From: Heptranchias perlo
Lineage: Eukaryota
Assembly: GCF_035084215.1 (NCBI RefSeq)
Contig: NC_090332.1
Coordinates: 36,022,001-36,086,000 of the forward strand
Reading direction: 5' to 3'
DNA: 64,000 nucleotides
Numbering within the stretch: position 1 is the stretch's first letter; the number at the start of each line of letters is the position of its first letter. The translations under genes and the position numbers were made by a program. The notes under the pieces were generated by a model, which did not search any database, was not told where the DNA came from, and was given only the letters and a program-made list of their open reading frames with translations. Below, in pieces: positions 17,146-58,440 of the stretch.

Positions 17146-18558
17146 CACAATGGGTTGACTTTAAGGTGACCGATTCCGTCGGGTGGGAGGTAGACGGTGC
17201 ATTCCTTCCTGAAATCGCCTACCTTCTCTCTTCCTCTAGGTTCTTTCCAGGATGAAGTATCATCTGGGGGCAGTCAGGACACCAGCAATTCACAACAGGT
17301 CATATCACACACTCCATCTGGAACAACACCCATCAAAGATCCAAGCATCCCAGGGCATTAAGATAATGAGTTTGAGGAAAGAGAACCAGGTGATGTACCC
17401 ATCACAAATGAGGAAGAACAAGGAGAAGTGGCAGCCAAAGAACAGCAAGCGGCTGCCCAGGGCCACAGACCCAGGGATTCCTCTGCTATATGGGCAAGAG
17501 ATTGGAACCCTACTGTTCTGCCTTTGGAAGGGAGATGGTAATTTAGAAAACAAGCCTTCATGACATCTTTTGAGACTGCACTGAACGTGCAGCAAAAGTC
17601 ATTAGAGAAGGTGTAGCGGTGGAGAAAATACAAAGTAAGACTTAAAATAATGCAGAATATGACAGAAGTATTTAAAATTATGAAAGGATGGGATAGGGTA
17701 GATTGAAATAGACTGTTTCCTTTTGTTGAAGGATCTAGATCGAGGATCTATAGATACCTAGATACAAGCCTCTGTAGACGACAGGCAGTGCTTATATTGT
17801 GGTCTTAAAGGGATAGAACAGGTTAACCTCAGCTTTGTCTTAGCTAGTCACATCTGTACTCCAGACTAGCTATGAGCAAGCCACAAGAGAACCATTAGTA
17901 TTTTACGAAATGTCCAAGCAAGTAATAAATATGTTGAGGAAATTCAATTAGAAAAGCCAGATTACATAATGTCAAACAAAAAGGTTCATTTCAACAGCCC
18001 TACTCTGGCAGCCTGCCCTACAGGGTTATTTCTCGGAAGCTGGTCGTTGTCCCATACTCTGTCCATTATTTCCCTAATAATGCTTAAAATATTTGTTTGG
18101 TTTTTGCGATGTGGTAGAGTATATATATAAAACTGGCTACAGTGTGTATATGGATACTTTTAACCCAGCAGCATAATGGGGATAGAATTTTAGAATGAAA
18201 ATCAATTAAAATTAATAGGGAAAGATACATTCTCATTCTTCACAGACTCTTAGTGGGTTAAATTGGGTTAAAACGGGCATGGGGATCTCGGAATTTGATT
18301 AACCCACGCCTGTTCATAGCGATGCAGGCAGCATATTAAATTTGTGCTGCCTGCTGATTTAAATGATTGCCGCGTGCAGCCAGCGCTCCCTGTTCATTGG
18401 ATGCACGCATCAGCAGGGATCCCAATATCGCAAGTGGCTAGCGCTATTTAAAGGCAGTCTGCACTTCTTAAAGGGGAGGTGCATTGTGGCTGCAAGAAGT
18501 GGTGGAAGTCAATTGTGAAGTGAATCTGTGCTGTAATATATTGAAGAAGGGCTAAACA

Positions 18559-20300
18559 TGCGCGAAAGCGTGCACCAAGGTTCTCTGATAATGCACTGGA
18601 GGCCTTGATGCAAGAGGTGGAGGGAAGAAGGGACATTCTGTATCCGCAGGGGAGGCTCCAGACATATGCTGAGGAGGCAGTTGGAGCAAATAGCGGAGTA
18701 GGTCAGTGCCAGGCACTTTGTTCCAAGAACATGGATGCAGTGCAGGAAGAAGTTCAACAATCTGACATGAGTTGTCAAGTTGAGTGAGTTCAATCTTCAA
18801 TGGCATATCCTACCAAATACACCATTAGCCTCATCCACTGCTCAATTCACCATACCCCCATCACCCACTTACCAACAATCTCTATCAACCAGTACTCAAC
18901 CCTTCAATTCATATGCTTTACCTCTCCCTCACACACACGGCATTGTTTCAAGTCTCACACTCACAACCCACAGCTGACACACACACACTGGCAGCTATTC
19001 AACCATGACAGCCACATCACCCAAACATCTTGCAGGACGCTCACTGACGCATTTCCCTCTTTCTTACAGGAGAAGGTGGCACATAACAGGAGGCAGCAAC
19101 AAACAACTGGAGGAGGACAAGCACACCTACACTATTTAACCCCCATGGAGGAGACAGTGCTGGCCATCATGGGAAGGGGCATTGCCTAGGCCGTGGCCAC
19201 TGGCGGTGCTGGAGGGATCGATGACGAGGGTCTCTGCATACCTAATCCTCCTTCTCACTTTCCAATTCTCCCTCATCCCACAATCTTTTCTGACTCACGT
19301 GTTGCAGATGGTGTAAGCATGCACTTCTTACTTTCTCCTCTCCCCTCACCGCAACCCAACTCATGTCCCTTTGTCATTTTAGATACGCAAGAACTGGTAC
19401 CTTCCCAGTCAAAGGAGGCAGAGGAAGGTGACAGTGATGATAAAGACACACCGTCACTTGATCTTACACTCACAGCTACCAGCTCAGAGACTGACGCTAT
19501 GCGTGCATTAGAGGTTAGGATAGAAGAGGGATCTGTACATGGTGAGACATCGGGCACAAGTGTGCAGGAGCCAGGGTGGGGGGAAAGGATACCTCAGGTG
19601 CCAGCTCACTGGAGGGCAAGGTCGCACACTAGTTATGTTGCAGAGGATTCAGATGAGGAATTCGAAGGCCCAGGCTACAGTAGAAGGCTGATGGACATAC
19701 ACAACCAAATGCTTGGTGCAATGGAAAGCCTGCCAGAAAGTCTGCGCACAATGTCAAGGAGCATGGAGGAGTCCAGCTTCAACTTGGCACAGGGCTTTGC
19801 GCAGAGCTTGGAGCCCATCCTTTCCCACATGGAACGGGTGGTCACCTCAGTCAGCACACCTGTGGAATCCACCATGATACAGCATCTGATGACCGATGTC
19901 ACAGCTTCCATCAAAGGTCTGACTGCTGCACTGGAAGCTCAGACTGCTGCTATCGTGGCTCTGGGTACCACTGATGAAAGAAGCTTCTAGGACATCACAG
20001 CAGTCCAGCAATCTGTTCTCCAACAGATCGCCAGGATTGCTGAGGCGCTGCTTCAGGAGAGTTGCAGTGGCACCATGGAAGACGATCCTGCTGTCCTCTC
20101 TCAGGATGACTGCATTCCTGCTCCCACCCCTGACATTCCACCAATACCCTTGCTGTTTCCTGTCAGCCAACCAGCCCAGGCTGCTGTAGCCCAGGCCGAA
20201 ATGGTGAAGTCTGAAGCTTGAAGGTCAGCAGCCTTCCACCACCCATGCTCCAGCCACTGGGGAAGCACCTTGTAGGAGCACAATGAAAGGTAAAGACACA
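18559..20300 (+). pseudogene. Harbinger Myb/SANT-like DNA-binding protein gene, three exons, frameshifted
   Basis: RAPRFSDNALEALMQEVEGRRDILYP in exon 1 (donor mutated at about 18779); cttacag|GAGAAGGTGGCACATAAC starts exon 2 at 19070; attttag|ATACGC starts exon 3 at 19383 with acidic and coiled-coil-like sequence (ORF 19193-19990). Confidence 0.8.
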
Positions 20301-20535
20301 TGAAAGACAGGAACTAAGGGAATGCACAGGGGTGAATAGTTTCATTTTGTATGCATTATTTTATAAGTGAATTTATAAATGTGGATTTGAATTTGCATTT
20401 GGTGGTGGTTTTTATTTCTATGGTGAGCTGAGGAAGGAACCAATCCGTAATCATAAAAAGGACGATGTGATGGTCAGTGAGAGATGAAAGGTAAGGAGTG
20501 TGGGACTGTTGGTGAATGGGGAAGTGTAGTTGAGG

Positions 20536-34124: not shown

Positions 34125-35690
34125 GCATGATTTTTAGATGGAGCCAGGAAGAGCAGGAAGAGAGTGGGGGGGAGGGGGGGGGCGGAGGTGGGGGAGATTT
34201 TCGGGCTCAAAACCTGGAAGTAAAATTCACGGGTTGGAATGTGCAATCGCGACCTAATTGAATGATTACAATTTTACTTCCAGGTTTCCCGTGCGACGGA
34301 CAGCCAGATTGGCAGGCTGGGTGCCTGTCGGGTGGGAAAGCTAGCAACTGGGGAACGAATGCCAGGTAAGTCTGACATCGCGAGGCTGGGGGGCGGGGGT
34401 CGGTCAACGAATGGGGGTTCGGGCATCATGGAGGCTGGGGACATCGGGGGGCTGTGGACATCGGATGCTGGAGACATCGGAGGCTGTGGACATTGGAGGT
34501 TGTGGACATCGGAGGCTGTGGACATCGGAGGAGGGCAATGGACATCAGACGATGGAGACATCGGGGGAGGTGTGGACATCAGAGGCTGTGGACATCGGAG
34601 GAGGGCTGTAGACATTGGAGGCTGTAGACATTGGAGGCTGTGGACATTGGAGGCTGTGGTCATCGGGGGAGGGCTGTGGACATCGGACGCTGGAGACATC
34701 GGGGGGGAGTTGTGGACATCGGAGGCTGTGGACATTGGAGGAGGGCTGTGGACATCGGAGGCTGGAGACATTGGAGGAGGCATGTGGACGTCGGAGGCTG
34801 TGGACATCGGAGGAGGGTTGTGGACATCGGAGGCTGGAGACATTGGAGGAAGGTTGTGGACGTCGGAGGCTGTGGACATCGGAGGAGGGCTGTGGACATC
34901 GGAGGCTGGAGACATTGGAGGAAGGTTGTGGACGTCGGAGGCTGTGGACATCGGAGGAGGGTTGTGGACATCGGATGCTGGAGACATCGGGGGGGGGTTG
35001 TGGACATCGGATGCTGGAGACATCGGAGGCTGTGGTCATTGGAGGTTGTGGACATCGGAGGAGGGATGTAGACATCGGAGGCTGTGGACATTGGAGGAGG
35101 GCTGTAGACGTCGGAGGCTGTGGACATCGGAGGAGGGATGTGGACATCGGAGGCTGGAGACATCGGGGGGGGCTGTGGACATCGGAGGCTGTGGACATCG
35201 GAGGCTGGAGACATTGGAGGAGGGCTGTGGACATCGGAGGCTGGAGACATCGGGGGGGCTGTGGACATCGGAGGCTGTGGACATTGGAGGAGGGCTGTGG
35301 ACATCGGAGGCTGGAGACATCGGGGGGGCTGTGGACATCGGAGGCTGTGGACATCGGAGGCTGGAGACATTGGAGGAAGGCTTGAGACACCAGGAAGGTC
35401 AGAGACATCGGGAGGGTTGGAGACATCGCGGGGAGGGTTGGGCATCGGGGGGGGGGTCTAGGTCATCGGGACGGGTCTGACATCGGGGGGGAGGGGTGAC
35501 CGGCCGTTGGTGGGGGACCGATCACGGCAGGCAAGCTTGTTGGGCCCGAAGGAAATACTCCTGCTCCTCCTGGCCCACAAGCAGTGCAATAAAGGGACTT
35601 AACAAATGAACTGGCCCTTCTTGCCTCCTTTTACCTGGCGAGATTCATGAGCCCCAGGAAAGGTGTTCTGGAGGCGTTAAATTTAAATAG
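34125..35690 (+). mobile_element. Harbinger-type MITE with an expanded internal minisatellite
   Basis: Starts GGCATGATT like the 55870 element and shares CTCCTGCTCCTCCTGGCCCACAAGCAGTGCAATAAAGG with it; right end unclear. Confidence 0.7.
34430..35430 (+). repeat. G-rich minisatellite, core GGAGGCTGTGGACATC (16 bp) with 19-20 bp variants
   Basis: Dozens of copies of ggaggctg(t/g)(g/a)gacat(c/t) and ggaggagggctgtggacatc; gives repetitive ORFs in most frames. Confidence 0.95.
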
Positions 35691-36015
35691 TAATCCCTGC
35701 TCTCTCACATCTTTCATTGACAGGTTTTATAGGGGCATTGACAGTGGTCAGGCAGCAGTACTCCTGTCCATCATGTTAATCAGGATGGTGTGTGGTGCAG
35801 GGAGATGTGAGAAGAAGAGAACATACCTTAACATGAGAACTGTCGCCAAAAATTAGAAACAGAGCTAACTGAACCGTAAACATCAACGTTCTCAAATAAC
35901 AACTTTAATCTTTATAAGAGCATTGGATGGACATAAACCACTTTCCATGAAACCTAGATAATGTGAGGGAGAGTGGGTCACAACTGAAAACTGGTCTTTC
36001 CTGCTACCTGCGCTT

Positions 36016-43925: not shown

Positions 43926-45624
43926 AGGGCTCCAGATTGGAATAGAGCAGATTTTAAAATGATTGGTGTTAGTTAGCAGAGGTGAGGTAGAAAGAGAAAT
44001 AGGCACACAGGTCTGTAGATCAACAATGGAATAATTTTAAAAAGGAAATTGCAGAGTTGCAGAATAATTATATGCCTTTAAAAAAAGTCTACTTCAAGCT
44101 TCAGAAGGTCGTAGATAAATAAAGAGGTTAGAAACAAACCATAAGGAATATGGAGATTATAGGTATGATAAAAGCAAGAGAAAATATGATAAAATAAAAT
44201 AAAAGATTAACATAAGAACATAAGAAATAGGAGCAGGAGTAGGCCATACGGCCCCTCGAGCCTGCTCCACCATTCAATCAGATCATGGCTGATCTTCGAC
44301 CTCAACTCCACTTTCCTGCCCAATCTCCATATCCCTTGATTTTCCTAGAGTCCAAAAATCTATCTAGCTCTGTCTTGAACATATTCAACTACTCAGCATC
44401 CACAGCCCTCTGGGGTAGAGAAATCCAAAGATTCACAACCCTGTGTGTGAAGAAATTCCTCCTCATCTCAGTCTTGAATGGCCGACCCCTTATCCTGCAA
44501 CTATGCCCCCTAGTTCTAGACTCTCTAGCCAAGGGAAACAATCTTTCAGCATCTGCTCTGTCAAGCCCCGTCATAATCTTATACGTTTCAATGAGATCAC
44601 CTCTCATTCTTCTAAACTCCAGAGAGTATAGGACCATTCAACTCAATCTCTTTGCATCGGACAACCCTCTCATCCCAGGAATTAATTTAGTGAACATACA
44701 TTACACCGCCTCTAAGGCAAGTATATCCTTCCTTAGATAAGGAGACCAAAACTGTGCTCAGTAATCCAGGTGAGGTCTCAGTAAGCCCTGTACAACTGCA
44801 GTAAGACTTCCCTACTCTTGTACTCCAACCTCCTTGCAATAAAGGCCAACATGCCATTTGCTTTCCTAATTGCTTGCTGTACCTGCATACTAACTTTTTG
44901 TGTTTCTTGTACGAGGACACCCAAGTCTCTCTGAACACCAACATTTAATAGTTGCTCACCATTCAATAAATATTCTGTTTTTCTATTCTTCCTACTAAAG
45001 TGAATAACCTCACATTTCCCCACATTATACTCCATCTGCCACCTTCTTGCCCACTATCTTAATCTGTCGATATACCTTTGCAGACTCTTTGGGGCCGATT
45101 TTCGGATGAAGGAGCGGGTGTGTTGTGGGGGGGGTGTCCGAAAATCGCTGAAATCCCGAGCAGGTTTGGAGCCCGGCTCCAACCCGCTGACTTCCAGGTT
45201 CCCCAGTGAAGCGTCCAGGTGCGCACGCACACCTCCCGGATGCGGAAGTCCCACCGGCAATTAAAGCCGGCAGGATGATAATTTGCACAGTTTGTCCAAT
45301 AGTTAAAGTACTTCAACTACTTGATTGACTCGACATTTTGGCAGGGATGAGATATTGAAGAATCCTCAGCGTGTTTCTCGTGCTTTGGGAAACACTCCCT
45401 GTTGCAACAGACGTGTTTCAGCCAGCAGCCAGTGGGAGATGCTAATGCTTATTTGACAGGTGGGGAGAAAACGTCATTTATTGCAGCGGGGCACTCTGTC
45501 ACTTCAGACAAAGTTTTGGCTGCAAGACCTTTGTGTTTTTACTCAAATTTCTCACTTTCCACCCAAAACTCTGCTGTTCAAACATATTTAAATACTTTGC
45601 GGACCCCCTCAACCTCACACCGTC

Positions 45625-46835
45625 ATGGCTGCATTCACCACTACATCTGAGGACGAGCAATATCACCAGCCTCGCCAGGCACGGCGTCCACCTCCGCCAC
45701 GTGGAGCTCCACACCCAGTGCTGCGCCACAGGCACCTGCACAAGAGCACCGAGGGCAACAACAGAGAGAGCGACGTCGCAGGAGGCAGTACTCTCGCAAC
45801 AGGGTCTACAGACCGAGGCTCAGCTTCCTGGACCTCTCTGAGGAGCAGTGCATATACGGAGGCGCAGAGTCAGTCGCCAGGCAAGGCGTCCACCTCCGCC
45901 ACGTGGAGCTCCACACCCAGTGCTGCGCCACAGGCACCTGCACAAGAGCACCGAGGGCAACAACAGAGAGAGCGACGTCGCAGGAGGCAGTACTCTCGCA
46001 ACAGGGTCTACAGACCGAGGCTCAGCTTCCTGGACCTCTCTGAGGAGCAGTGCAAACGGAGGCGCAGAGTCAGTCGCCAGCTAGTTGCAGACATTTGCAG
46101 CCTCCTTCATGCCGAGCTGGTCCCGGCTGGGCCGAGCAGCATCTCCTTACCTGTTGCTGTCAAAGTCACCACTGCCCTCAACTTCTTCACCTCTGGATCA
46201 TTCCAGGGTGCCACCGAGGACATTGCCGTGGTCTCTCAGTCGTCTGCACACAAGTACATAAGGCAGGTCACTGACAGCTTGTTTTGCAGGGTTTAGCACT
46301 ACGTCAACTTACTCATGGATGACCTCAGCCAGACAGAGAGGGCTGTGGCTGGCTTCCCACGGGTCCAGTGTGTAATCGATTGCACCCATATAGCAATGCG
46401 AGCACCTCCACACCAGCCAGGACTGTTTGTCAACAAGAAGGGCTATCACTCCATCAACACTCAGCTCGTTTGTGACCACCGCAAGAGATTCCTTCATGTG
46501 TGTGCCAGATACCCTGGCAGCTGCCACGATTCCTTCATCTTCTGGAATTCCAACATCCCGCCTCTCTTCCATGTACCGAACACCAGTAAGGGCTGGCTCC
46601 TCGGGGACAAGGGATACCCTCTGCACACGTGGCTCATGACACCTCTGAGGAACCCCATCACTGAGCAACAGCGTCGCTATAACAGAGTGGGATGCATTAT
46701 AGTTGTCTGTTGTGCCCTGCATAACACGGCACAACAGAGAGGGGTGATGCTTGAGGACACCCCATCCACATCTGCCGCCCACATTGAGGAGGAGGTGGAG
46801 GAGGAGGAGCAACCCATGGGCAGAACAGTGGCTCA
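45625..46835 (+). pseudogene. Harbinger DDE transposase with an internal duplication and deletions
   Basis: KVTTALNFFTSGSFQ, GFPRVQCVIDCTH, YPGSCHDS, WLLGDKGYP, VCCALHN; the segment carrying the catalytic Glu is missing (YN|RVGCII). Confidence 0.9.
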
Positions 46836-48587
46836 CCGTGAGGGCTCCTCCAAAGACTCCTCCACCTGCACCAGTGCAGGGGCAGACTCAGCCACCTGGA
46901 GAGCAGGTAGCATTGCGAGTACTGGTTGAGAGGGGGGCAACCGGTGAGACATGGGAGCGCTTTGACTGGCGTCCCCACTTCCATGTCCCCTTTCACCATC
47001 ATCTCTCCCCTGGGCCAGGCCCACATCACTCCTACACGCTGATGGGCGACAGTTTGGAGGACATGGGTGATCCTTTTAAGGCCCGTGCTAGTGTATCTGC
47101 CTGCCTGTTTATGGCGGCAGAATGTTGTTTACCCTGAGGCTGAACGGCTGTTGTCAGGGCCTGAATTTTCTCATTTGTGAGCCACGCTTGAAGCTCCACG
47201 GAGGCTAGCATTCCCTCCATCGCAGACATTCCCGCACTTACCCGCGACAGTATGTCAGAGATGCCCTCACATCTCTGTGACACTATCTGAGAGATGCCCT
47301 CACGTCCCAGTGACAGTATCTCAGAGATGCCCTCCCTTACCTGTGCCACCATTCCACTCATGCAGGAGTTGGACTCCTCCATCCTCTGCGCTATTGTGGA
47401 GAGTGCACGTGGCACCTGTTCCAGCACCTCGCAAATGTGCTGCTGCCCCTCGATCATTCTCCTTTTAAATGATTGCTCCCAGGGTTCAGCATCTGTGTCC
47501 AGCTGAGCAGAGCCTGGACAGGAATGCTCCCACTGACGCGGACTCTCCACAGCTGCCCCTGCCACCAGTGTCTGCTCGTGCTCACATGTATGTGGTAACT
47601 CACCATGTGTGACCCCAACTAACTGCGGACTATCTGCGCTGGTGGATGGCTCGCTCAGATGTGACAGTGCACCCTCAGAGGCCAGCAGATCCTCTGAGGA
47701 ATTGCCCTCTGCCGTCACAGCGGTCGCTGAAGGCCCTGTAGGAGAACAGAAGGCAATATTCAGATGTGTCATGTTGCGATGAGCATACTGAGGTGCTGAA
47801 GATGGCAAGGCATGTTAACATCAATTCATATTGTGTGTGATGAATGTTAAAGTTCTGTCACCAGACGTTTGTCGGGTGCTCCGACGGACAGGCACTCAAG
47901 GGTGCGGCTCAGCTCCAGCGCCTCTTGCTCCGCGTCTGTGAGGACGACAATCTGTAGCGGCCCCCCTCAGAACCTTGCCCTCTCCCGTGCATTGTAGGCT
48001 CTCTGCTCCTATAAGTGGAGAAAGCACAGACGAGTGAGTGAGTGATGGTGACGTGGCCAACCACTGAGTGCATTGGGCTTGGATGCGGCTGACTGTGAAA
48101 GAGATGCATCAGAGGGTGAGTATGAGACAGAGCTATGAGATTGTATGAGGATTGGGTTGAGTGGTAGTGGTGGGTTGAGTAATGGGGAGGTGAGGAAGTG
48201 CTGAGGAAGTGCAGGCAAGTTGAGGATGAGCTTTAAGTGGGTGTGAGGACTGATGTGATAGAGTAGTGTTGGCATTGCAGAATGAGCTGGGGGTGGGGGT
48301 GGTGATGTGGAAGACGGAATATAGGAGAATGAGTAAGTGTACTCACTTTGGCTGACCTAGTTAGGTCATTGAAGCGCTTCCTGCACTGGATCCAGGTGCG
48401 GGAGATGTTGCTGCTGCTAGTGACCTCCTCTACCACCTCGAGCCAGGCCTTCTTGGTGGCAGAGTCAGGCCACTTCCTCCCATCCACCGAGTAGAAGACA
48501 TCCCTCCTCCTCCTCACCCCATCCAGTAACACCTGGAGTGAGGCATCGCAAAATCTAGGAGCAGTCTTTCCCCTGTGCTGCTCCATT
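46836..48587 (-). pseudogene. Harbinger Myb/SANT-like gene, spliced
   Basis: [21 protein letters not shown]...AWLEV...RTWIQCRKRFNDLTRSAK|gtgagt in exon 1; later exons at about 48008-47870 and 47736-46840. Confidence 0.85.
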
Positions 48588-50879
48588 GTGCTGTGTGGGT
48601 GTTTGCTCCAGGAACAGCCATTGGAGGACTGGCCCTTTACATAGAGCTCCTCCAGCTGACAGCCTGTGATGCACGTGCGCAGTCCGCCCGCTGCACAGCT
48701 TTCGGACGGCAAACCCGGAAGTTAAGTGGCTCCAATTGACCCGCGATTGCGTGGGAAATGGACAGATTTTATTTGGCGGGTCACCCACGCACCCATTCGC
48801 ACCTTCCCCCCACCCCCCGCTGCCATCCCACCTACCCGTTAATATCAAGGCCTTTTTGTCCTCCTCACAGCTTACTTTCCCACCTAGCTTTGTATCATCA
48901 GCAAACTTGGATACATTACTCTCGGTCCCTTCATCTAAGTCATTAATATAGATTGTAAATAGCTGAGGCCCAAGCACCGATCCTTGTGGCACCCCATTAG
49001 TTACAGCCTGCCAACCTGAAAATGGCCCATTTATCCCTACTCTCTGTTTTCTTTCTGTTAGCCAATCCTATATCCCTGCTAACATATTATCCCCAACGCC
49101 ACGAGCCCTTACCTTGTGTAACAGCCTTTTATGCGGCACCTTATCGAATGCCTTTTGAAAACCAAAAAAACTACATCCACTGGTTCCCCATTATTCACCC
49201 TGCTAGTTACATCCTCAAAAAACTCTAATAAATTTGTTGAACACGATTTCCCTTTCATAAAAACATGTTGACTCTGCCTAATCATATTATGATTTTCTAA
49301 GTGCCCTTTTACACTTCCTTAATAATGGATTCCAGCATCTTCCCAATGACTGATGTCAGGCTAACTGGCCAATAGTTCCCTGCTTTCTCTCCCTCCTTTT
49401 TTAAATAGCGGGGTAACATTTGCTACTTTCCAATCCACTGGGACCGTTCCAGAATCTAGAGAATTTTGGAAGATCATAACCAATGCATCCACTATCTCTG
49501 CAGCTGCCTCTTTTAGAACCCTAGGATGTAAGCCATCAGGTCCAGAGGATTTGGCGGCTTTTAGTCCCATTAGTTTGTCCAGTACTTTTTCTCTACTGAT
49601 ATTAATTGTTTTAAGTTCCTCACTCGCATTTACCCCTTGGTTCCCCACTATTTTTGGCATGCTTTTTGTACCTTCTACTGTGAAGACAGATACAAAATAT
49701 TTGTTTAATGCTCCTGCCATTTCCTGATTCCCCATTATAATATTTCCTGTCTCAGCCTCTCAGGGACCAATGTTTACTTTTGTTACTCTCTTCCTTTTTA
49801 CATACTTGTAGAAGCTCTTTTAATTCATTTTTATATTTCTTGCTAGTTTACTTTCATATTCTATTTTCTCCCTTTTTATCAATTTTTTAGTCGTTCTTTG
49901 TTGGTTTCTAAAACTCTCCCAATCCCTTGGCTTATTACTCTTCTTGGCAACATTATAGGCCTTTTCTTTCAATCTAATACTCTCCTTAACTTCTTTAGTT
50001 AGCCACAGGTGGATCATTTTTCCCGTGGAGTTTTCATTTCTCAATGGAATGTATATTTGTTGAGAGTATTGAAATATTTCTTTAAATGTTTGCCATTGCT
50101 TTTCAACTGTCAAACCCTTTAATTTAATTTCCCAATCTACCTTTGACAACTCATCCCTCATACCTATGTAAATGGCTTAATTTAAGTTTAAGACTCTAGT
50201 TTCTGACTTAAGTACGTTACTTTCAAACTCAATGCGAAATTCTATTATATTATGATCACTCTTCTCCAGAGGATCTTTTACTGTGAGATTACTAATTAAC
50301 CCTATCTCATTACATAATATACAAGATCTAAAATAGCCTGTTCCTTGTTTGGTTCCATGACTTATTACTCTAGGAAACCATCTTGAATACATTCCATGAA
50401 CTCGTCCTCCAAACTACCTTTGCCAATTTGATTTGCCCAGTCTATATGCAGATTAAAGTCCCCCATTGTGACTGCATTTCCTTTGTTACACGCTCCTATT
50501 ATTTCATGATTAATACTCTGTCCAATGGTATTGCGACCATTTGGGGGCATATAAACTACTCCCTCCAGTGTTTTCTTCCCCTTGTTATTTCTAATTTCCA
50601 CCCATATTGATTCTACTTCCTGATCTTCCGAGTCAAGATCGTTTCTCACCACTGTCCTTATGTCATCCTTTATTATTAAGGCTACACCCCCTCCTTTTCT
50701 ATTCTGCCTGTCTTTTCTAAATGTCATGTACCCTCGAATATTTAGTTCCCAACCTTGGTCATTTTGGATCCATGTCTCTGTAATGGCTATCAGGCCAAAT
50801 CCATTTATCTCTATTTTTTTTTTTTATTCGTTCACGGGATGTGGGCGTCGCTGGCAAGGCCGGCATTTATTGCCCATCC

Positions 50880-53177
50880 CTAATTGCCCTCGAGAAGGTG
50901 GTGGTGAGCCGCCTTCTTGAACCGCTGCAGTCCGTGTGGTGACGGTTCTCCCACAGTGCTGTTAGGAAGGGAGTTCCATGATTTTGACCCAGCGACAATG
51001 AAGGAACGGCGATATATTTCCAAGTCGGGATGGTGTGTGACTTGGAGGGGAACGTGCAGGTGGTGTTGTTCCCATGCGCCTGCTGCCCTTGTCCTTCTAG
51101 GTGGTAGAGGTCGCGGGTTTGGGAGGTGCTGTCGAAGAAGCCTTGGCGAGTTGCTGCAGTGCATCCTGTGGATGGTGCACACTGCAGCCACAGTGCGCCA
51201 GTGGTGAAGGGAGTGAATGTTTAGGGTGGTGGATGGGGTGCCAATCAAGCGGGCTGCTTTATCTTGGATGGTGTCGAGCTTCTTGAGTGTTGTTGGAGCT
51301 GCACTCATCCAGGCAAGTGGAGAGTATTCCATCACACTCCTGACTTGTGCCTTGTAGATGGTGGAAAGGCTTTGGGGAGTCAGGAGGTGAGTCACTCGCC
51401 GCAGAATACCCAGCCTCTGACCTGCTCTTGTAGCCACAGTATTTATGTGGCTGGTCCAGTTAAGTTTCTGGTCAATGGTGACCCCCAGCATGTTGATGGT
51501 GGGGGATTCGGCGATGGTAATGCCGTTGAATGTCAAGGGGAGGTGGTTAGACTCTCTCTTGTTGGAGATGGTCATTGCCTGGCACTTATCTGGCGCGAAT
51601 GTTACTTGCCACTTATGAGCCCAAGCCTGGATGTTGTCCAGGTCTTGCTGCATGCAGGCTCGGACTGCTTCATTATATGAGGGGTTGCAAATGGAACTGA
51701 ACACTGTGCAGTCATCAGCGAACATTCCCATTTCTGACCTTATGATGGAGTGAAGGTCATTGATGAAGCAGCTGAAGATGGTTGGGCCTAGGACACTGCC
51801 CTGAGGAACTTCTGCAGCAATGCCCTGGGGCTGAGATGATTGGCCTCCAACAACCACTACCATCTTCCTTTGTGCTAGGTATGACTCCAGCCACTGGAGA
51901 GTTTTCCCCCTGATTTCCATGGACTTCAATTTTACTAGGGCTCCTTGGTGCCACACTCGGTCAAATGCTGCCTTGATGTCAAGGGCAGTCACTCTCACCT
52001 CACCTCTGGAATTCAGCTCTTTTGTCCATGTTTGGACCAAGGCTGTAATGAGGTCTGGAGCCGAGTGGTCCTGGCGGAACCCAAACTGAGCATCGGTGAG
52101 CAGGTTATTGGTAAGTAAGTGCCGCTTGATAGCACTGTCGACGACACCTTCCATCACTTTGCTGATGATTGAGAGTAGACTGATGGGGCGGTAATTGGCC
52201 GGATTGGATTTGTCCTGCTTTTTGTGGACAGGACATACCTGGGCAATTTTCCACATTGTCGGGTGGATGCCAGTGTTGTAGCTGTACTGGAACAGCTTGG
52301 CTAGAGGCGCAGCTAGTTCTGGAGCACAAGACTTCAGCACTACAGCTGGGATGTTGTCGGGGCCCATAGCCTTTGCTGTATCCAGTGCACTCAGCCGTTT
52401 CTTGATATCACATGGAGTGAATCGAATTGGCCGAAGACTGGCTTCCGTGATGGTGGGGATATTGGGAGGAGGCTGAGATGGATTATCCACTCGGCACTTC
52501 TGGCTGAAGATGGTTGCAAACGCTTCAGCCTTGTCTTTTGCACTCACGTGCTGGACTCCGCCATCATTGAGAATGGGGATGTTTGCAGAGCCTCCTCCTC
52601 CCGTTAGTTGTTTAATTGTCCACCACCATTCACGACTGGATGTGGCAGGACTGCAGAGCTTTGATCTGATCCGTTGGTTGTGGAATCGCTTTGCTCTATC
52701 TATAGCATGTTGCTTCCGCTGTTTAGCATGCATGTAGTCCTGAGTTGTAGCTTCACCAGGTTGGCACCTCATTTTTCGGTACGCCTGGTGCTGCTCCTGG
52801 CATGCTCTTCTGCACTCCTCATTGAACCAGGGTTGATCCCCTGGCTTGTTGGTAATGGTAGAGTGAGGAATATGCCAGACCATGAGGTTACAGATTGTGC
52901 TGGAATACAATTCTGCTGCTGCTGATGGCCCACAGCGCCTCATGGATGCCCAGTTTTGAGCTGCTAGATCCATTCTGAATCTATCCCATTTAGCACGGTG
53001 GTAGTGCCACACACCACGTTGGATGGTGTCCTCAGTGCGAAGACGGGATTTCATCTCCACGAGGACTGTGCGGTGGTCACTCCTACCAATACTGTCATGG
53101 ACAGATGCATTTGCGACAGGTAGATTGGTGAGGACGAGGTCAAGTAAGTTTTTCCCTCGTGTTGGTTCCCTCACCAC
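50880..53177 (-). CDS. Reverse transcriptase ORF (EN C-terminus, RT, C-terminal domain), 765 codons without a stop
   Basis: [57 protein letters not shown]. Confidence 0.92.
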   Translation of the reverse strand: MVREPTRGKNLLDLVLTNLPVANASVHDSIGRSDHRTVLVEMKSRLRTEDTIQRGVWHYHRAKWDRFRMDLAAQNWASMRRCGPSAAAELYSSTICNLMVWHIPHSTITNKPGDQPWFNEECRRACQEQHQAYRKMRCQPGEATTQDYMHAKQRKQHAIDRAKRFHNQRIRSKLCSPATSSREWWWTIKQLTGGGGSANIPILNDGGVQHVSAKDKAEAFATIFSQKCRVDNPSQPPPNIPTITEASLRPIRFTPCDIKKRLSALDTAKAMGPDNIPAVVLKSCAPELAAPLAKLFQYSYNTGIHPTMWKIAQVCPVHKKQDKSNPANYRPISLLSIISKVMEGVVDSAIKRHLLTNNLLTDAQFGFRQDHSAPDLITALVQTWTKELNSRGEVRVTALDIKAAFDRVWHQGALVKLKSMEIRGKTLQWLESYLAQRKMVVVVGGQSSQPQGIAAEVPQGSVLGPTIFSCFINDLHSIIRSEMGMFADDCTVFSSICNPSYNEAVRACMQQDLDNIQAWAHKWQVTFAPDKCQAMTISNKRESNHLPLTFNGITIAESPTINMLGVTIDQKLNWTSHINTVATRAGQRLGILRRVTHLLTPQSLSTIYKAQVRSVMEYSPLAWMSAAPTTLKKLDTIQDKAARLIGTPSTTLNIHSLHHWRTVAAVCTIHRMHCSNSPRLLRQHLPNPRPLPPRRTRAAGAWEQHHLHVPLQVTHHPDLEIYRRSFIVAGSKSWNSLPNSTVGEPSPHGLQRFKKAAHHHLLEGN

Positions 53178-53763
53178 CTGCCGCAGGCTCGTTCAGTAGT
53201 GGTGCTACCGAGCCACTCTTGGTGATGGACATTGAAGTCCCCCACCCAGAGTACATTTTGTGCCCTTGCTACCCTCAGTGCTTCCTCCAAGTGGTGCTCA
53301 ACATGGAGGAGGACTGATTCATCAGCTGAGGGAGGACGGTAGGTGGTAATCAGCAGGAGGTTTCCTTGCCCATGTTTGACCTGATGCCATGAGATTTCAT
53401 GGGGTCCAGAGTCAATGTTGAGGACTCCCAGGGCCACTCCCTCCTGACTGTATATCACTGTACCGCCACCTCTGGTGGGTCTGTCCTGCCGGTGAGACAG
53501 GACATACCCAGGGATGGTGATGGAAGAGTCTGGGACGTTGGCTGAAAGATATGATTCTGTGAGTATGGCTATGTCAGGCTGTTGCTTGACTCGTCTGTGG
53601 GACAGCTCTCCCAATTTTGGCACAAGTCCCCAGATGTTAGTAAGGAGGACCTTGCAGGGTCGACTGGGCTTGGTGTTTTGCCGTTGTCGTGTCTGGTGCC
53701 TAGTGGTCCGATGCCGGGTGGTCCGTCCGGTTTTATTCTTATTATGACTTTTCGTAGCGAGAT
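53171..53763 (-). CDS. APE-type endonuclease N-terminal part of the same ORF, separated by one frameshifting lesion near 53187
   Basis: TNIWG, LTES, RQDRPTRGGG, YRPP, GDFNVHH. The frame is open from a TAA at about 53766 and contains no ATG. Confidence 0.85.
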
Positions 53764-54019
53764 TTTACAACTGAGTGGCTTGCTCGGCCATTTCAGAGGG
53801 CAATTAAGAATCAACCACATTGCTGTGGGTCTGGAGTCACATATAGGCCAGACCGGGTAAGGGCGGCAGGCTTCCTTCCCTAAAGGACATTAGTGAACCA
53901 GATGGGTTTTTACGACAATCCGGTAGTTTCATGGCCATCATTACTGATACTAGTATTTTAATTCCAGATTTTATTTTTATTAATTGAATTTAATTAATTA
54001 ATTGAATTTAAATTCGCCA

Positions 54020-54113
54020 GCTGCCGTGGCGGGATTTGAACTCATGACTCTGGATTTTAGTCCAGGCCTCTGGATTACTAGCCCAGTAACATAACCACTA
54101 TGCTACCGTACCC
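54020..54113 (-). promoter_or_regulatory. tRNA-Thr(AGT)-like head with a Pol III type 2 internal promoter
   Basis: A box TAGCATAGTGG (54105-54095), anticodon arm CTGGG-CTAGTAA-TCCAG, second arm CTGGA-CTAAAA-TCCAG, B box GAGTTCAAATCC (54043-54032). Confidence 0.85.
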
Positions 54114-54359
54114 TGCAATTAATTCATCTATCTTGTTACGAATGCTCCGTGCATTCAGATAAAGAACTTTTAATTTTGACATTTTACCATTTTTTCCTGC
54201 TTTGACCTTACTTCTTGTTGCACTATTATCGATAAACTCTCTGTCCCTTCTTGCCACACTCTGCTTATCTTTACCCAAGTCACTACACCGTTCTATTGTC
54301 TTAACTTTTCTCATTAGATTTCTAAATTTCCCCTCACCTGACCCCTTCCCCCCTCCTTA

Positions 54360-55629: not shown

Positions 55630-55869
55630 CTGTATAATAGCCTAGTGGTTCTGGTACTGGACCAATAATCCATAGGTCATGAATTCAAATCCTACAATAG
55701 CAAGTTGTGAAATTGAATTTAATAAATCGGGTAATTTGTGGGCTAGCACCAGAAAATGACCATTTGTTGGATTGTCATAAAAACTTAATAGGCTCATTAA
55801 TGTTCTTTAGGGAAGGGGACACACCTCCCCTACCTAGTCTGGCCTATATCTGACTCCAATCCCACACTA
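55630..55869 (+). mobile_element. SINE-like copy of the tRNA head and 5' UTR of the 50817-54113 element
   Basis: tagcctagtgg (A box), gaattcaaatcc (B box), ggattgtcataaaaac...ctttagggaagg...tctggcctatatctgactcca, colinear with the reverse complement of 54105-53825; cut by a MITE. Confidence 0.8.
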
Positions 55870-56859
55870 GGGCATGATTCCCACTCGGAGCCGGGAACCC
55901 AGCGCGTGAGCAGATGTTCACATGGGGGACCCGGAAATCAAGTGAGTGCGTCACAATCTGCGATCACAACTCAATTGGAGGTAATTATTTATGTTTCTGG
56001 GTCTCAGAGACTTCAGAGGAGGGGGGGTCGGAAACATCGGGAGGGGAGGGGTCGGAGACATCGCGGAAGAGGGGGGTCGGAGACATCGCGGAGGAAGGGG
56101 CTTCAGTGACATCACGGTGGAGAGGGGTCGGAGACAATGCGGGGGGGGGGGGGGTTCGGAGAAATCGTGGAGGAGGGGAGGTCGGAGAAATTGCGGAGGA
56201 GGGGGGTTCGGTGACATCACAGAGAGGAGAAGGGTCGGAGACATTGCGGAGAGGAGAAAGGTCGGAGACATCGCGGGGGGGGGGGGGGGGGGGTCGGAGC
56301 CATTGTGGAGCAGGGGGGCTCGGTGACATCGAAGGAGAGGGGTTGGAGACATCAGAGGAGAGGGGTCAGTGACATCACAAGAGGGGGGTCGTCTGTGGGG
56401 GTGGTCTACCATGGGGGGTCTCAGCCATCGGTGGAGGGGTCTACCATCGGAGGGGGGAGGGGTTGGCTGATCGCCCCAGGTGAGTTTGTTGGGCCTGGAT
56501 GAAGCACTCTTGCTCCTTCTGGCCCACAAGCAGTGCAATAAAGGCACTCACCTCATGGACCAGCCCTTCTCGCCTCCTCTCGCCTGGCAAGAATCGGAAG
56601 CGATGGGAAATCTGTGCAGATAAGGTTAAATACGTTTTACATTTATAATCCACAAAAAATTAAGTGCCTCAACTATCGCAATGAGATACATTGCCCCTTT
56701 AACAATCCGCCCTCCGGCATTAAGCAGGGATGGGAATTCCGGGTTTTGGATTTCGCAAACATAGAAGTTGGAGCCAGGTTGCAGTCCCACTTTAAAGGTC
56801 TGTTAGTTTTACCTCCCACTCGCCCCAACCCACACATTTTTTGGGGTTAAAATTACCCC
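55870..56859 (+). mobile_element. Harbinger-type MITE with a G-rich ggagacatcg repeat array
   Basis: CTA|GGGCATGATT...AATTACCCC|CTA target duplication; shared conserved block with 34125. Confidence 0.8.
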
Positions 56860-57295
56860 CTATGTGCTTGATTTATGAGAGGGTTGGGGGGGCGTTAAAT
56901 TGGCAAAAATCTGAAACCCGACCCCAACCCACCGTGAACGCGCCTACTTCCCGTTTAACCACGGCGGGTTTGGAGGCGTTCGAGTAACCCGCACTGGAGA
57001 GGCGGCAAAGTGATTAGAATATTTAAATGAGGCTCCTTTCATGAGATTTTAGCAGTGATTTGAAATCAACGCCTCCTGCTAGGGTTTTCCGGGGTTCGGG
57101 AAACTCAGCAGTAAAACAGAGGCGAAATTGAATTTCACTTCATGGGGTTGGTTAAAGGTCAGGTGTCTTGATATGAATAAAGGATCAGTGCTCTCAGCTA
57201 CGTTCTCGGTTCCCTCTGGGGAACGGTTGGTGACAGTACTTGTTGTGAGAGACTTATTTGTACAGTTTGGAGGTGTTCACACAGAGAACCTCAGG

Positions 57296-58440
57296 ATGGG
57301 TAGCACCATGGCTGCTTTAGATTGGATTTCGGACAAGGAAGACAATCAGCATCATCACCAGAAAGGACGTATTGTGGAGGGAGCTGCAGGTGGACAACAG
57401 AGAGGGGAGCAATATAGGGGTCGAGTTCGCAGGAGGCACTACCCAGGTAACAGGGTCTATAGACAGAGGCTGAGCTTCCTTGACCTCTCGGAGGAGCAGT
57501 GCTTCCGAAGGCTGAGATTGTCACATCAGGTGGCCGCAGACATCTGCAGCATCCAAAAGACCTGCTGCCTGCTGGACCTGGTGGCCACGCATTACCAGTG
57601 GCTGTGAAAGTCACCACTGCCCTCAATTTGTTTGCCTCTGGTTCCTTCCAGGGCACTACCAGAGGCATATCGAGGGTCTCTCAGTTGCCTGCACATAAAT
57701 GCATACGGCAAGTGACAGATGGATTGTTTGCCAAGGCTGGGAATTATGTAAACTTCCCCTGTGATGACAATAGCCAGAATGAGGGGAACTCGGATTCGCG
57801 TCTCTGGCTGGCTTCCCACAGGTACAGGATGCCATCAACTGCACACATGTGGCAATCTGAACACTGCCAGATCAACCAGGAGCATTCGTTAACCACAAGG
57901 GATTTCATTCCATCAATGTTCAGCTGATCTGCAACCACAAGGAAAGGTTCATGCAGATCTGTGCTAGATTCCCTGGGAGCTGCCATGAAGCTCTCGTACT
58001 GCAGCAGTCCAACATCCCCGACCTGTTCGTACCTGGAACCATCCTTAAGGGGTGGCTGCTAGGTGACTAAGGATACCTCCTTCAAACTCGGTTGATGACA
58101 CCTCTGAGGAACCCCACCAATGAACCCCAAGAGCGCTACCATGCGAGCCATATGACAATTTGATCTGTCATTGAGCAAGCCATCAGCATGCTCAAGATGC
58201 ACTTCAGGTGCCTGGACAAGTCTGGAGGTGCCCTTCAGTACTCACCAGCGAGGGTCTCTAGCGCAGCAGTGAGGACTAGAGGTGGAGGAGGAACAAATCG
58301 CTCACCACGCTTCATCTAAATGAGGATACCAATGGAGGTGGAGGACAAGGAGGAGGAAGATGACGATGGAGCCCCCAAAGCCAGACCAGTGGATCACATT
58401 GCTGCTCTGGGATGCCCTAATAGCTCAAAGGTTCAATTAG
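57296..58440 (+). pseudogene. Harbinger DDE transposase, multiple frameshifts and stops
   Basis: RVYRQRLSFLDLSEEQC, KVTTALNLFASGSFQ, FPGSCHE, GWLLGD*GY, IEQAISMLKMHFRCLD. Confidence 0.88.

What the first reader, a model, noticed from the sequence alone, without database searches (positions are those of the whole stretch)
50817..54113. Candidate RNA polymerase III-transcribed autonomous LINE: tRNA head fused to an EN-RT ORF with no T4 terminator in 3.3 kb
Seen: a single insertion whose 5' end is a tRNA-like head with A and B boxes, followed by about 250 nt of UTR, one EN+RT frame and poly(A), with no ORF1. Scanning the plus strand by eye from 50826 to 54113 I found zero AAAA and only about 8 AAA (sense TTTT = 0), against about 21 plus-strand TTTT runs. 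The flanking CR1 on the same strand has many sense-strand T4+ runs (e.g. about 44354, 49157, 49217, 49259, 49694). A rough random expectation at about 21% T is around 5 T4 and 24 T3 runs. Known: Pol III uses A/B boxes and stops at four or more T; LINEs are normally Pol II transcripts and tRNA heads are the hallmark of non-coding SINEs. Inference: this family is a protein-coding retroposon transcribed by Pol III, with codon usage selected against terminators. I cannot check whether this is already published.
Basis: partly seen in the sequence, partly recalled or inferred. Interest (0 to 1): 0.93.

Follow-up and report, generated by a model that had tools for sequence, protein, structure and literature searches.

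The report
Protein-coding LINE with SINE-type promoter
This is a slightly broken copy of a very abundant shark jumping gene that encodes its own copying enzyme yet begins with the tRNA-type promoter of non-coding SINEs, avoids the T-runs that stop RNA polymerase III and has no normal start codon, so it may be a protein-coding retrotransposon made by that polymerase and translated without a cap.

Summary
Observation confirmed. The element (50817-54113, minus strand) belongs to a young 3.33-kb LINE family in a shark-type genome; 5,965 sites join its SINE-like leader to the endonuclease frame. The longest copies start at the tRNA-like head (A and B boxes), also in copies 10-22% diverged, so it is no chance chimera. 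The consensus has no T4; T3 is 0.29 of expectation, the lowest beside 67 related LINE ORFs (none T4-free) and far below Tx1-like LINEs of equal T content in the same genome. T4 absence alone is weak (P about 0.1 against synonymous shuffles). New here: the single 973-codon EN-RT frame has no AUG until codon 250, yet the AUG-less endonuclease is under purifying selection. The frame opens just behind a hairpin with an anticodon-like AGC loop and an in-frame GCU, a possible dicistrovirus-IGR-IRES-like start (weak support). Head-plus-tail deletion derivatives form SINEs repeatedly. Best reading: an autonomous Pol III LINE translated cap-independently (0.6); nothing on transcription was measured. 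Nine literature searches found no report; Repbase/Dfam were not available. This scan noted the same architecture in two other genomes.

The parts
50817..54113 (-). Full-length copy of the tRNA-headed LINE family (consensus 3,334 nt; this copy about 1% diverged, 37 nt shorter)
54030..54113 (-). tRNA-like head; family 5' end at 54113
54095..54105 (-). Pol III A box (TAGCATAGTGG)
   Evidence: read directly; consensus for A box from general knowledge
54047..54086 (-). Anticodon-arm-like hairpin and its tandem duplicate (about 19 nt; absent from the older SINE class, present in the 78% copy L188)
54032..54043 (-). Pol III B box (GAGTTCAAATCC), 51 nt after the A box
   Evidence: read directly
53976..54011 (-). 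AT-rich tandem/palindromic spacer of variable length, without T4
53769..53918 (-). Conserved leader (SINE 'body'); candidate three-way junction and pseudoknot with two helix-context compensatory pairs
53771..53796 (-). Hairpin with 7-nt anticodon-like loop (53780-53786; C-N-AGC-AA)
53765..53767 (-). Last in-frame stop (TAA) before the long frame
53756..53758 (-). In-frame GCT complementary to the AGC loop: proposed tRNA-mimic pseudoknot and start site (inferred)
53171..53764 (-). Basic N-terminal extension plus APE endonuclease (PF03372), no AUG
53186..53192 (-). Approximate site of the deletion that shifts the frame in this copy
53052..53054 (-). First in-frame ATG (codon 250 of the family frame), behind most of the endonuclease
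50880..53192 (-). RT-bearing frame to the stop codon
51474..52220 (-). Reverse transcriptase domain (PF00078)
50826..50879 (-). 3' UTR/tail shared with the derived SINEs; two AATAAA
50814..50825 (-). A tail (last bases may belong to the target)
53796..53811 (.). 5' arm of a 16-nt, 88% inverted repeat with 50876-50891, next to the SINE deletion junctions
48846..50813 (-). Host CR1 LINE, part downstream of the insertion (continues upstream at 54114); about 1 nt lost at the target, no duplication
55640..55890 (+). Old non-coding relative with the same head and leader

Best explanation
An autonomous, single-ORF (APE + RT, no ORF1) LINE family of sharks whose own 5' end is a tRNA-derived type-2 Pol III promoter. 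SHOWN: the head is the family's 5' end across age classes; the ORF is intact in young copies and under purifying selection, including the part before the first AUG; sense-strand T runs are depleted far beyond related LINEs; head-plus-tail deletion derivatives recur. INFERRED: Pol III starts at the head, reads 3.3 kb because terminators were purged, and stops at a T run in or behind the A tail; the uncapped RNA is translated from a non-AUG site at the 3' end of the structured leader. MOST LIKELY START MECHANISM (about 0.35-0.4 on its own): an IRES that works like the dicistrovirus IGR IRES, in which the AGC loop of the last hairpin pairs with the in-frame GCU and the next codon is decoded first. 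The protein then copies its own RNA by target-primed reverse transcription, without ORF1 and without target duplication, and template jumps from tail to leader give rise to SINEs.
For: Head: 19 of 30 top copies start within 11 nt of the head's first base, with unrelated flanks; 30 of 30 head loci continue into the ORF (46); copies at 78%, 88%, 89% identity also start at the head; 5,965 leader-to-EN joins vs 98 short leader-to-tail joins. T runs: ORF T3 5 vs 12.1 synonymous-permuted (P=0.001), T4 0 vs 4.2 under a third-base model (P=0.01); Tx1-like ORFs of the same genome with 20-21% T have 7.6-9.4 T3/kb and 0.8-2.5 T4/kb vs 1.7 and 0; 0 of 67 related ORFs are T4-free and their T3 O/E is 0.54-1.72 vs 0.29; Phe 2.0% vs about 4% in most relatives. 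Translation without AUG: shared variants N:S 9:12 vs singletons 268:101 in the EN before the first Met (P=0.006; 85); GCT-to-EN distance in frame in 57 of 68 copies and leader-to-EN length in frame in 86 of the 100 listed rows (hand count, 98), with several length classes; upstream AUGs are cut off by stops or are not conserved in older classes; the codon after GCT varies (ACG, ACA, AAA), so no near-cognate start is kept; loop base 33 varies while AGC stays. Pol III RNAs need no ORF1 in the human assay (PMC2666806, passages).
Against: No transcript evidence: no RNA holder on record, contigs only. T4=0 is P=0.09-0.10 against synonymous permutation; T4-creating changes are not significantly rarer among recurrent variants (1 of 234 vs 9 of 575; 85). 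The codon-junction measure NNT|TTN (0 of 23) is also near zero in a Tx1-like control (0 of 39; 52). A 2,981-nt T4-free stretch also occurs elsewhere in the window. Two AATAAA lie at the 3' end, as in Pol II units. The leader folds no better than shuffles (z -0.53; 74), has no Rfam IRES match, lacks the published L1.1 motifs (by eye), its compensatory pairs rest on essentially two lineages and several spurious column pairs covary as well, and the AGC/GCU pairing is only 3 bp with no covariation.
Confidence: 0.6

Rival explanations
1. A Pol II LINE that captured a SINE as its 5' UTR. The A/B boxes are relics or act as TFIIIC-bound or Pol II promoter elements; T runs are avoided for another reason (polypyrimidine splice signals, U-rich decay elements, pairing with the A tail); the ORF starts by reinitiation or readthrough after a short uORF, as LINE ORF2s can.
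For: AATAAA twice at the 3' end; 3.3 kb is long for Pol III (general knowledge); in-frame ATG 27 nt before the last stop and other uORF ATGs; T3 depletion goes beyond what a T4 rule needs; T4 alone not significant.
Against: 5' ends coincide with the head's first base rather than with upstream host DNA (8, 85); both boxes are kept in old and young classes; none of 67 related ORFs or the Tx1/CR1 controls shows such depletion; the uORF ATGs are GTG or ACG in older classes.
Confidence: 0.25
2. Pol III makes the RNA, but protein comes by another route than a tRNA-mimic pseudoknot: rare master copies under host Pol II promoters supply the enzyme in trans, or a frameshift from the overlapping +1 frame (AUG at leader position 294) enters the ORF.
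For: An overlapping +1 frame with an AUG is open across the ORF start in young copies; in-frame indels preserve both frames; structure evidence is weak.
Against: That AUG is ACG/CpG-derived in older classes; no conserved slippery heptamer (65, 98, by eye); purifying selection acts on the propagating lineages themselves.
Confidence: 0.12
3. Chance SINE-LINE chimera or compositional artefact.
For: The head scores below the Rfam tRNA cut-off (7); element T content is only 19-20% (5).
Against: 5,965 identical-architecture joins; composition-matched controls have normal T runs.
Confidence: 0.01

Closest known systems
tRNA-derived SINEs (SINE2), e.g. shark HE1/HER1 and SacSINE1 pairs
   Same: tRNA-like head with A/B boxes, conserved body, LINE-type tail and A tail (pairs listed in PMC3747384, passages).
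   Different: Carries an intact 973-codon EN-RT ORF under selection. The body does not resemble the bivalve Meta-domain consensus (supplement of PMC4824008, part 1 of 4, by eye); the mismatch with Deu, V and CORE bodies is from recall only.
Single-ORF CR1-group LINEs of the Zenon type and their internally deleted SIDEs (Persaeus)
   Same: One EN-RT ORF, A tail, internal-deletion derivatives (PMC6740152, passages); 'CR1-Zenon like' LINEs are counted in the whale shark genome (bioRxiv 10.1101/443036, passage); nearest named proteins are from amphioxus and a moth at 37-39%.
   Different: Persaeus has no tRNA homology and no Pol III promoter; relatives in 80 metagenome loci lack the leader and keep normal T runs. 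That this family is the sharks' CR1-Zenon is my inference from recalled motifs; no tree with named references was made.
Dicistrovirus intergenic (type 6) IRES
   Same: AUG-less frame that opens directly behind a hairpin with an anticodon-like loop able to pair with an in-frame codon; about 150-170-nt structured leader (features from PMC12221177 and PMC10275262, passages).
   Different: No Rfam match, no L1.1/SLIV/SLV motifs, only 3-bp loop pairing, no covariation in that helix. PMC3894237 (passage) raises IGR IRESs in non-LTR elements only as a possibility.
R2 retrotransposons (recalled, not searched)
   Same: Non-LTR element not made by Pol II and translated from an uncapped RNA without a canonical AUG.
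   Different: R2 is co-transcribed by Pol I from rDNA, site-specific, with a restriction-like endonuclease; this element is dispersed and has its own internal promoter.

Membership tests
APE-type non-LTR retrotransposon (LINE) | APE endonuclease and RT in one ORF | tested here: met
   PF03372/PF14529 and PF00078; 973-codon frame in 8 of 30 copies
APE-type non-LTR retrotransposon (LINE) | Dispersed copies, fixed 3' end with A tail, 5' truncation | tested here: met
APE-type non-LTR retrotransposon (LINE) | ORF1 (in two-ORF clades) | tested here: not met
   only 349 nt precede the frame; no ORF of 150 aa or more there
APE-type non-LTR retrotransposon (LINE) | Target-site duplication | tested here: not met
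   no TSD over 6 nt found in 30 copies; 1-5 nt lost at five readable targets (by eye)
APE-type non-LTR retrotransposon (LINE) | Capped Pol II transcript | not testable with these tools
   only contigs were available
CR1-Zenon clade | Groups with named Zenon elements in an RT tree | not tested
   no named references at hand; nearest named proteins
SINE2 (tRNA-derived SINE) | tRNA-derived head with A and B boxes at the 5' end | tested here: met
   boxes read directly; Rfam tRNA alignment sub-threshold; the donor tRNA was not identified (one search returned element heads in all 100 rows shown)
SINE2 (tRNA-derived SINE) | Non-coding, short, non-autonomous | tested here: not met
   3.3 kb with a selected ORF; met only by its deletion derivatives
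SINE2 (tRNA-derived SINE) | No internal Pol III terminator | tested here: met
   consensus 0 T4; 27 of 30 copies 0 T4
SINE2 (tRNA-derived SINE) | Transcribed by Pol III | not testable with these tools
   needs ChIP/RNA-end data
MetaSINE | 66-bp Meta domain | tested here: not met
   by eye against bivalve consensus rows
Type 6 (IGR) IRES | PKI anticodon-codon mimic directly before a non-AUG codon in frame | tested here: inconclusive
   hairpin and in-frame complement present, frame kept; 3 bp, no covariation
Type 6 (IGR) IRES | PKII/PKIII ribosome-binding domain | tested here: inconclusive
   one long helix and one candidate pseudoknot each with one compensatory pair; z -0.53
Type 6 (IGR) IRES | L1.1, SLIV, SLV sequence motifs / Rfam IRES_Cripavirus match | tested here: not met
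   no match at E 10; motifs not seen by eye
Type 6 (IGR) IRES | Factor-independent ribosome binding | not testable with these tools
   bench test

The most novel reading that the evidence does not exclude
A dominant vertebrate retrotransposon has left the Pol II/cap/AUG pathway altogether: Pol III makes a 3.3-kb protein-coding RNA from a tRNA promoter, a cellular IGR-IRES-like tRNA mimic loads ribosomes without cap or initiator codon, no ORF1 is needed, and SINEs are born from it directly by internal deletion; an 'autonomous SINE'.
Probability: 0.28. Interest if true: 0.95.

Novelty: new variant of a known kind. Interest (0 to 1): 0.82.

Why it matters
It would break the textbook split between Pol II, coding LINEs and Pol III, non-coding SINEs, give a natural multi-kilobase protein-coding Pol III unit in a vertebrate, and show a direct route by which SINEs with head, conserved body and LINE tail arise. 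It also offers a testable function for a SINE 'body' (a translation element left over from a coding parent) and a candidate for the IGR-type IRES in non-LTR elements that PMC3894237 only speculated on. Young intact copies exist, so all steps can be tested in cell culture; a compact ORF1-free, cap-independent retroelement is of interest for RNA-based gene insertion.

Tried and rejected
The apparent shared start at query position 513 was a search artefact. ARAGORN: no tRNA in the window (2), and none relevant in 52 of the 80 metagenome loci scanned (one opposite-strand tRNA-Ile in L201). Viral contigs: no relative (39). No RNA holder listed (57); contigs of four runs from organisms B, C, D, G cover all 30 bins and show head-to-tail joints, but no listed piece spans the leader-ORF junction, and strand, start or level cannot be read (58). 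Meta domain rejected (31). Hammerhead and HDV-like ribozyme folds were considered by eye for the leader and rejected (core motifs missing; motifs recalled). Covariance model of the leader found nothing in 80 metagenome loci or 6 Tx1-like loci (best E 0.12). NNT|TTN junction statistic rejected as non-specific (52). TTT:TTC ratio not significant (19). The 5'-3' inverted repeat is one of 24 pairs and not exceptional alone (94). A systematic count of tails and target sites was lost with the script machine (86); those statements are by eye. Nishihara 2006 was not held under the id I tried (14). ESM Atlas gave only generic EN-RT clusters (107).
Full report
1. Observation. On the minus strand, 50826-54113 has no run of four T, 8 runs of three T and 21 runs of four or more A; base shuffles give 4.3 and 21.8 (P=0.01, 0.0005). 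The 5' end shows an A box (54095-54105), an anticodon-arm-like hairpin with a tandem duplicate, and a B box (54032-54043). Rfam aligns the head to tRNA only below threshold (18.7 bits) and ARAGORN calls nothing, as is usual for SINE heads (general knowledge). Pfam finds an APE endonuclease in 53171-53764 and RT in 50883-53192; the two frames are split by a deletion private to this copy (3,297 vs 3,334 nt). The element sits inside a CR1 copy, with about one base lost and no duplication.

2. Family. The genome G000 (3.25 Gb) holds many copies (44 matches from 40 scored of 10,686 candidates). Re-aligning the 30 fetched loci, 19 start within 11 nt of the head's first base, 11 exactly at it, in unrelated flanks; the other 11 are 5'-truncated. 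All 30 loci fetched with the 5' 664 nt continue into the ORF. An exact two-motif pattern counts 5,965 leader-to-endonuclease joins. Copies differ from the consensus by 0.2-1.2% and 8 of 30 keep a 973-codon frame. Older copies at 88-90% and 78% identity also begin at the head, and one at 68% links the leader to the endonuclease. Most of the RT-domain loci I inspected belong to this family. Nearest named proteins come from sharks of two superorders (67-84%), then amphioxus and a moth (37-39%), so the host is a shark by inference. Contigs of four runs from four organism labels cover the whole element and show head-to-tail joints but do not prove head-ORF linkage there. Two earlier notes of this scan describe the same architecture in other genomes (unchecked AI notes).

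3. T-run depletion. Consensus: 7 T3, 0 T4; 27 of 30 copies have no T4; 109 of 123 non-redundant copies have none in aligned columns. In the ORF, T3 is 5 against 12.1 under synonymous permutation (P=0.001) and 20.6 under a third-base model; T4 is 0 against 2.0 (P=0.10) and 4.2 (P=0.01). Controls from the same genome: Tx1-like ORFs with the same 20-21% T have 7.6-9.4 T3/kb and 0.8-2.5 T4/kb against 1.7 and 0; the host CR1 consensus has 30 T3 and 8 T4 in 2.6 kb. Of 80 metagenome loci with related LINEs, 67 had an ORF of 450 aa or more; none is T4-free and their T3 observed/expected runs from 0.54 to 1.72, against 0.29. Phe is 2.0% against about 4% in most relatives. Against: TTT:TTC is not significant (P=0.19); the NNT|TTN measure is shared by one Tx1-like control; T4-creating changes are not significantly rarer among recurrent variants; another element in the window has a 2,981-nt T4-free strand.

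4. The frame has no usable AUG. The first in-frame ATG is codon 250. Yet variants shared by five or more of 123 copies are 9 non-synonymous to 12 synonymous in the endonuclease before that ATG, against 268 to 101 for singletons (P=0.006); behind it 23:23 against 902:294 (P=0.0004) (CpG changes excluded). The distance from the GCT at codon 3 to the endonuclease is a multiple of three in 57 of 68 copies over several length classes, and the leader-to-EN length is in frame in 86 of the 100 rows listed (hand count), so the basic N-terminal extension is read. An in-frame ATG 27 nt before the frame is followed by one or two stops in 67 of 68 copies and is GTG in older copies; the ATG of the overlapping +1 frame is ACG-derived in older classes. 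The codon after GCT is ACG, ACA or AAA, so no near-cognate start is conserved.

5. Leader structure. Just before the frame lies a hairpin (53771-53796) with a 7-nt loop C-N-AGC-AA; position 2 of the loop varies (T, G, C, A) while AGC is kept in 65 of 68 copies, and AGC can pair with the in-frame GCT 12 nt behind the stem. This is the layout of PKI in type 6 IRESs (PMC12221177, PMC10275262; passages). Upstream, a long helix has a U-A/A-U swap (37 vs 20 rows) and a candidate pseudoknot an A-U/G-C swap (37 vs 13) (65 rows). These exceed the shuffles in cells, not in number of pairs, and rest on essentially two lineages; several non-helical column pairs covary too. Folding energy is unremarkable (z -0.53), Rfam has no IRES match and the published L1.1 motifs are absent by eye. 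So 'works like an IGR IRES' is a lead, not a membership. A model of the leader finds only this element and an old SINE in the window, nothing in 86 other sources.

6. Derived SINEs. 98 sites join the leader end to the tail across 30 nt or less, with many different junctions; their heads range from 74 to 96% identity, and an older class of about 400 nt has the same head and tail. This fits repeated internal deletion of a headed LINE rather than one fusion. An 11-nt exact complement between leader and tail lies near the junctions, but it is one of 24 inverted pairs.

7. Mechanism. Shown: anatomy, family status, selection on the ORF, T-run depletion, deletion derivatives. Inferred: Pol III transcription (internal boxes at the exact 5' end plus terminator avoidance), termination in or behind the tail (4 of 30 copies have T5-T9 in the tail; for this copy the next T4 is near 50333), cap-independent non-AUG translation, and ORF1 independence, which matches the finding that Pol III RNAs need only ORF2p while Pol II RNAs also need ORF1p (PMC2666806, passages). 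Rivals: a Pol II LINE wearing a SINE 5' UTR (0.25), Pol III RNA with another translation route (0.12).

8. Literature. Searches (listings) showed no autonomous tRNA-headed or Pol III LINE. Read: PMC7245038 (passages), PMC5786205 (abstract and passages, 13, 17; it assumes LINEs are Pol II and SINE heads are added to deleted LINEs), PMC3747384 (passages), PMC4824008 (parts 1-3 of 6 and part 1 of 4 of its supplement; 26, 28, 29, 31), PMC11481361 (passages), PMC5499810 (abstract and part 2 of 6; 42, 43), PMC3894237 (passages), bioRxiv 10.1101/443036 (passages, 93; supplements closed), PMC6740152 (passages), PMC5911963 (passages). The library lacks most subscription papers, figures are not held, and Repbase/Dfam could not be checked, so the family may be catalogued without this being remarked; R2 is cited from recall.

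9. Verdict. Real, robust and unusual: a new variant of LINE that carries SINE-type transcription signals and needs an unconventional start. Interest 0.82; Pol III plus IRES-like translation together 0.28, worth 0.95 if true.

Noticed in passing
window 45569-48549 (also 18274-20454, 57083-57607): Harbinger/PIF-like DNA transposon pieces (label from recalled motifs in the translations); the first is a 2,981-nt minus-strand stretch without T4, the second longest in the window.
   Followed up: no
L119, L120, L136 (G000 C38, C13, C725, C1626): Tx1-like L1-clade LINEs with intact 1,311-1,319-codon ORFs in tandem at about 7-kb spacing, suggesting target-specific insertion into a repeated gene.
   Followed up: partly
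L121-L123, L129: A second Tx1-like family that also avoids T before TT-starting codons (0 of 39) and has few T4; its target and promoter were not examined.
   Followed up: partly
L005, L006, L007, L019 3' ends: 4 of 30 copies carry a run of 5-9 T inside the A tail, a possible built-in Pol III terminator.
   Followed up: partly
window 53796-53811 and 50876-50891: Leader and tail are complementary over 11 nt exactly; SINE deletion junctions lie within about 40 nt of both arms, so end-to-end pairing may guide template jumps.
   Followed up: partly
window 34226-35847: Tandem repeat giving long open frames on both strands.
   Followed up: no
P0001, P0009, P0014, P0113, P0159: Pieces of this family are built into predicted shark gene models (67-84% identity), probably annotation artefacts or exonisation.
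   Followed up: no
P0016, P0019, P0034: Some close non-shark relatives also have low Phe (1.5-2.3%); their DNA could not be fetched, so heads and T runs are unknown.
   Followed up: no
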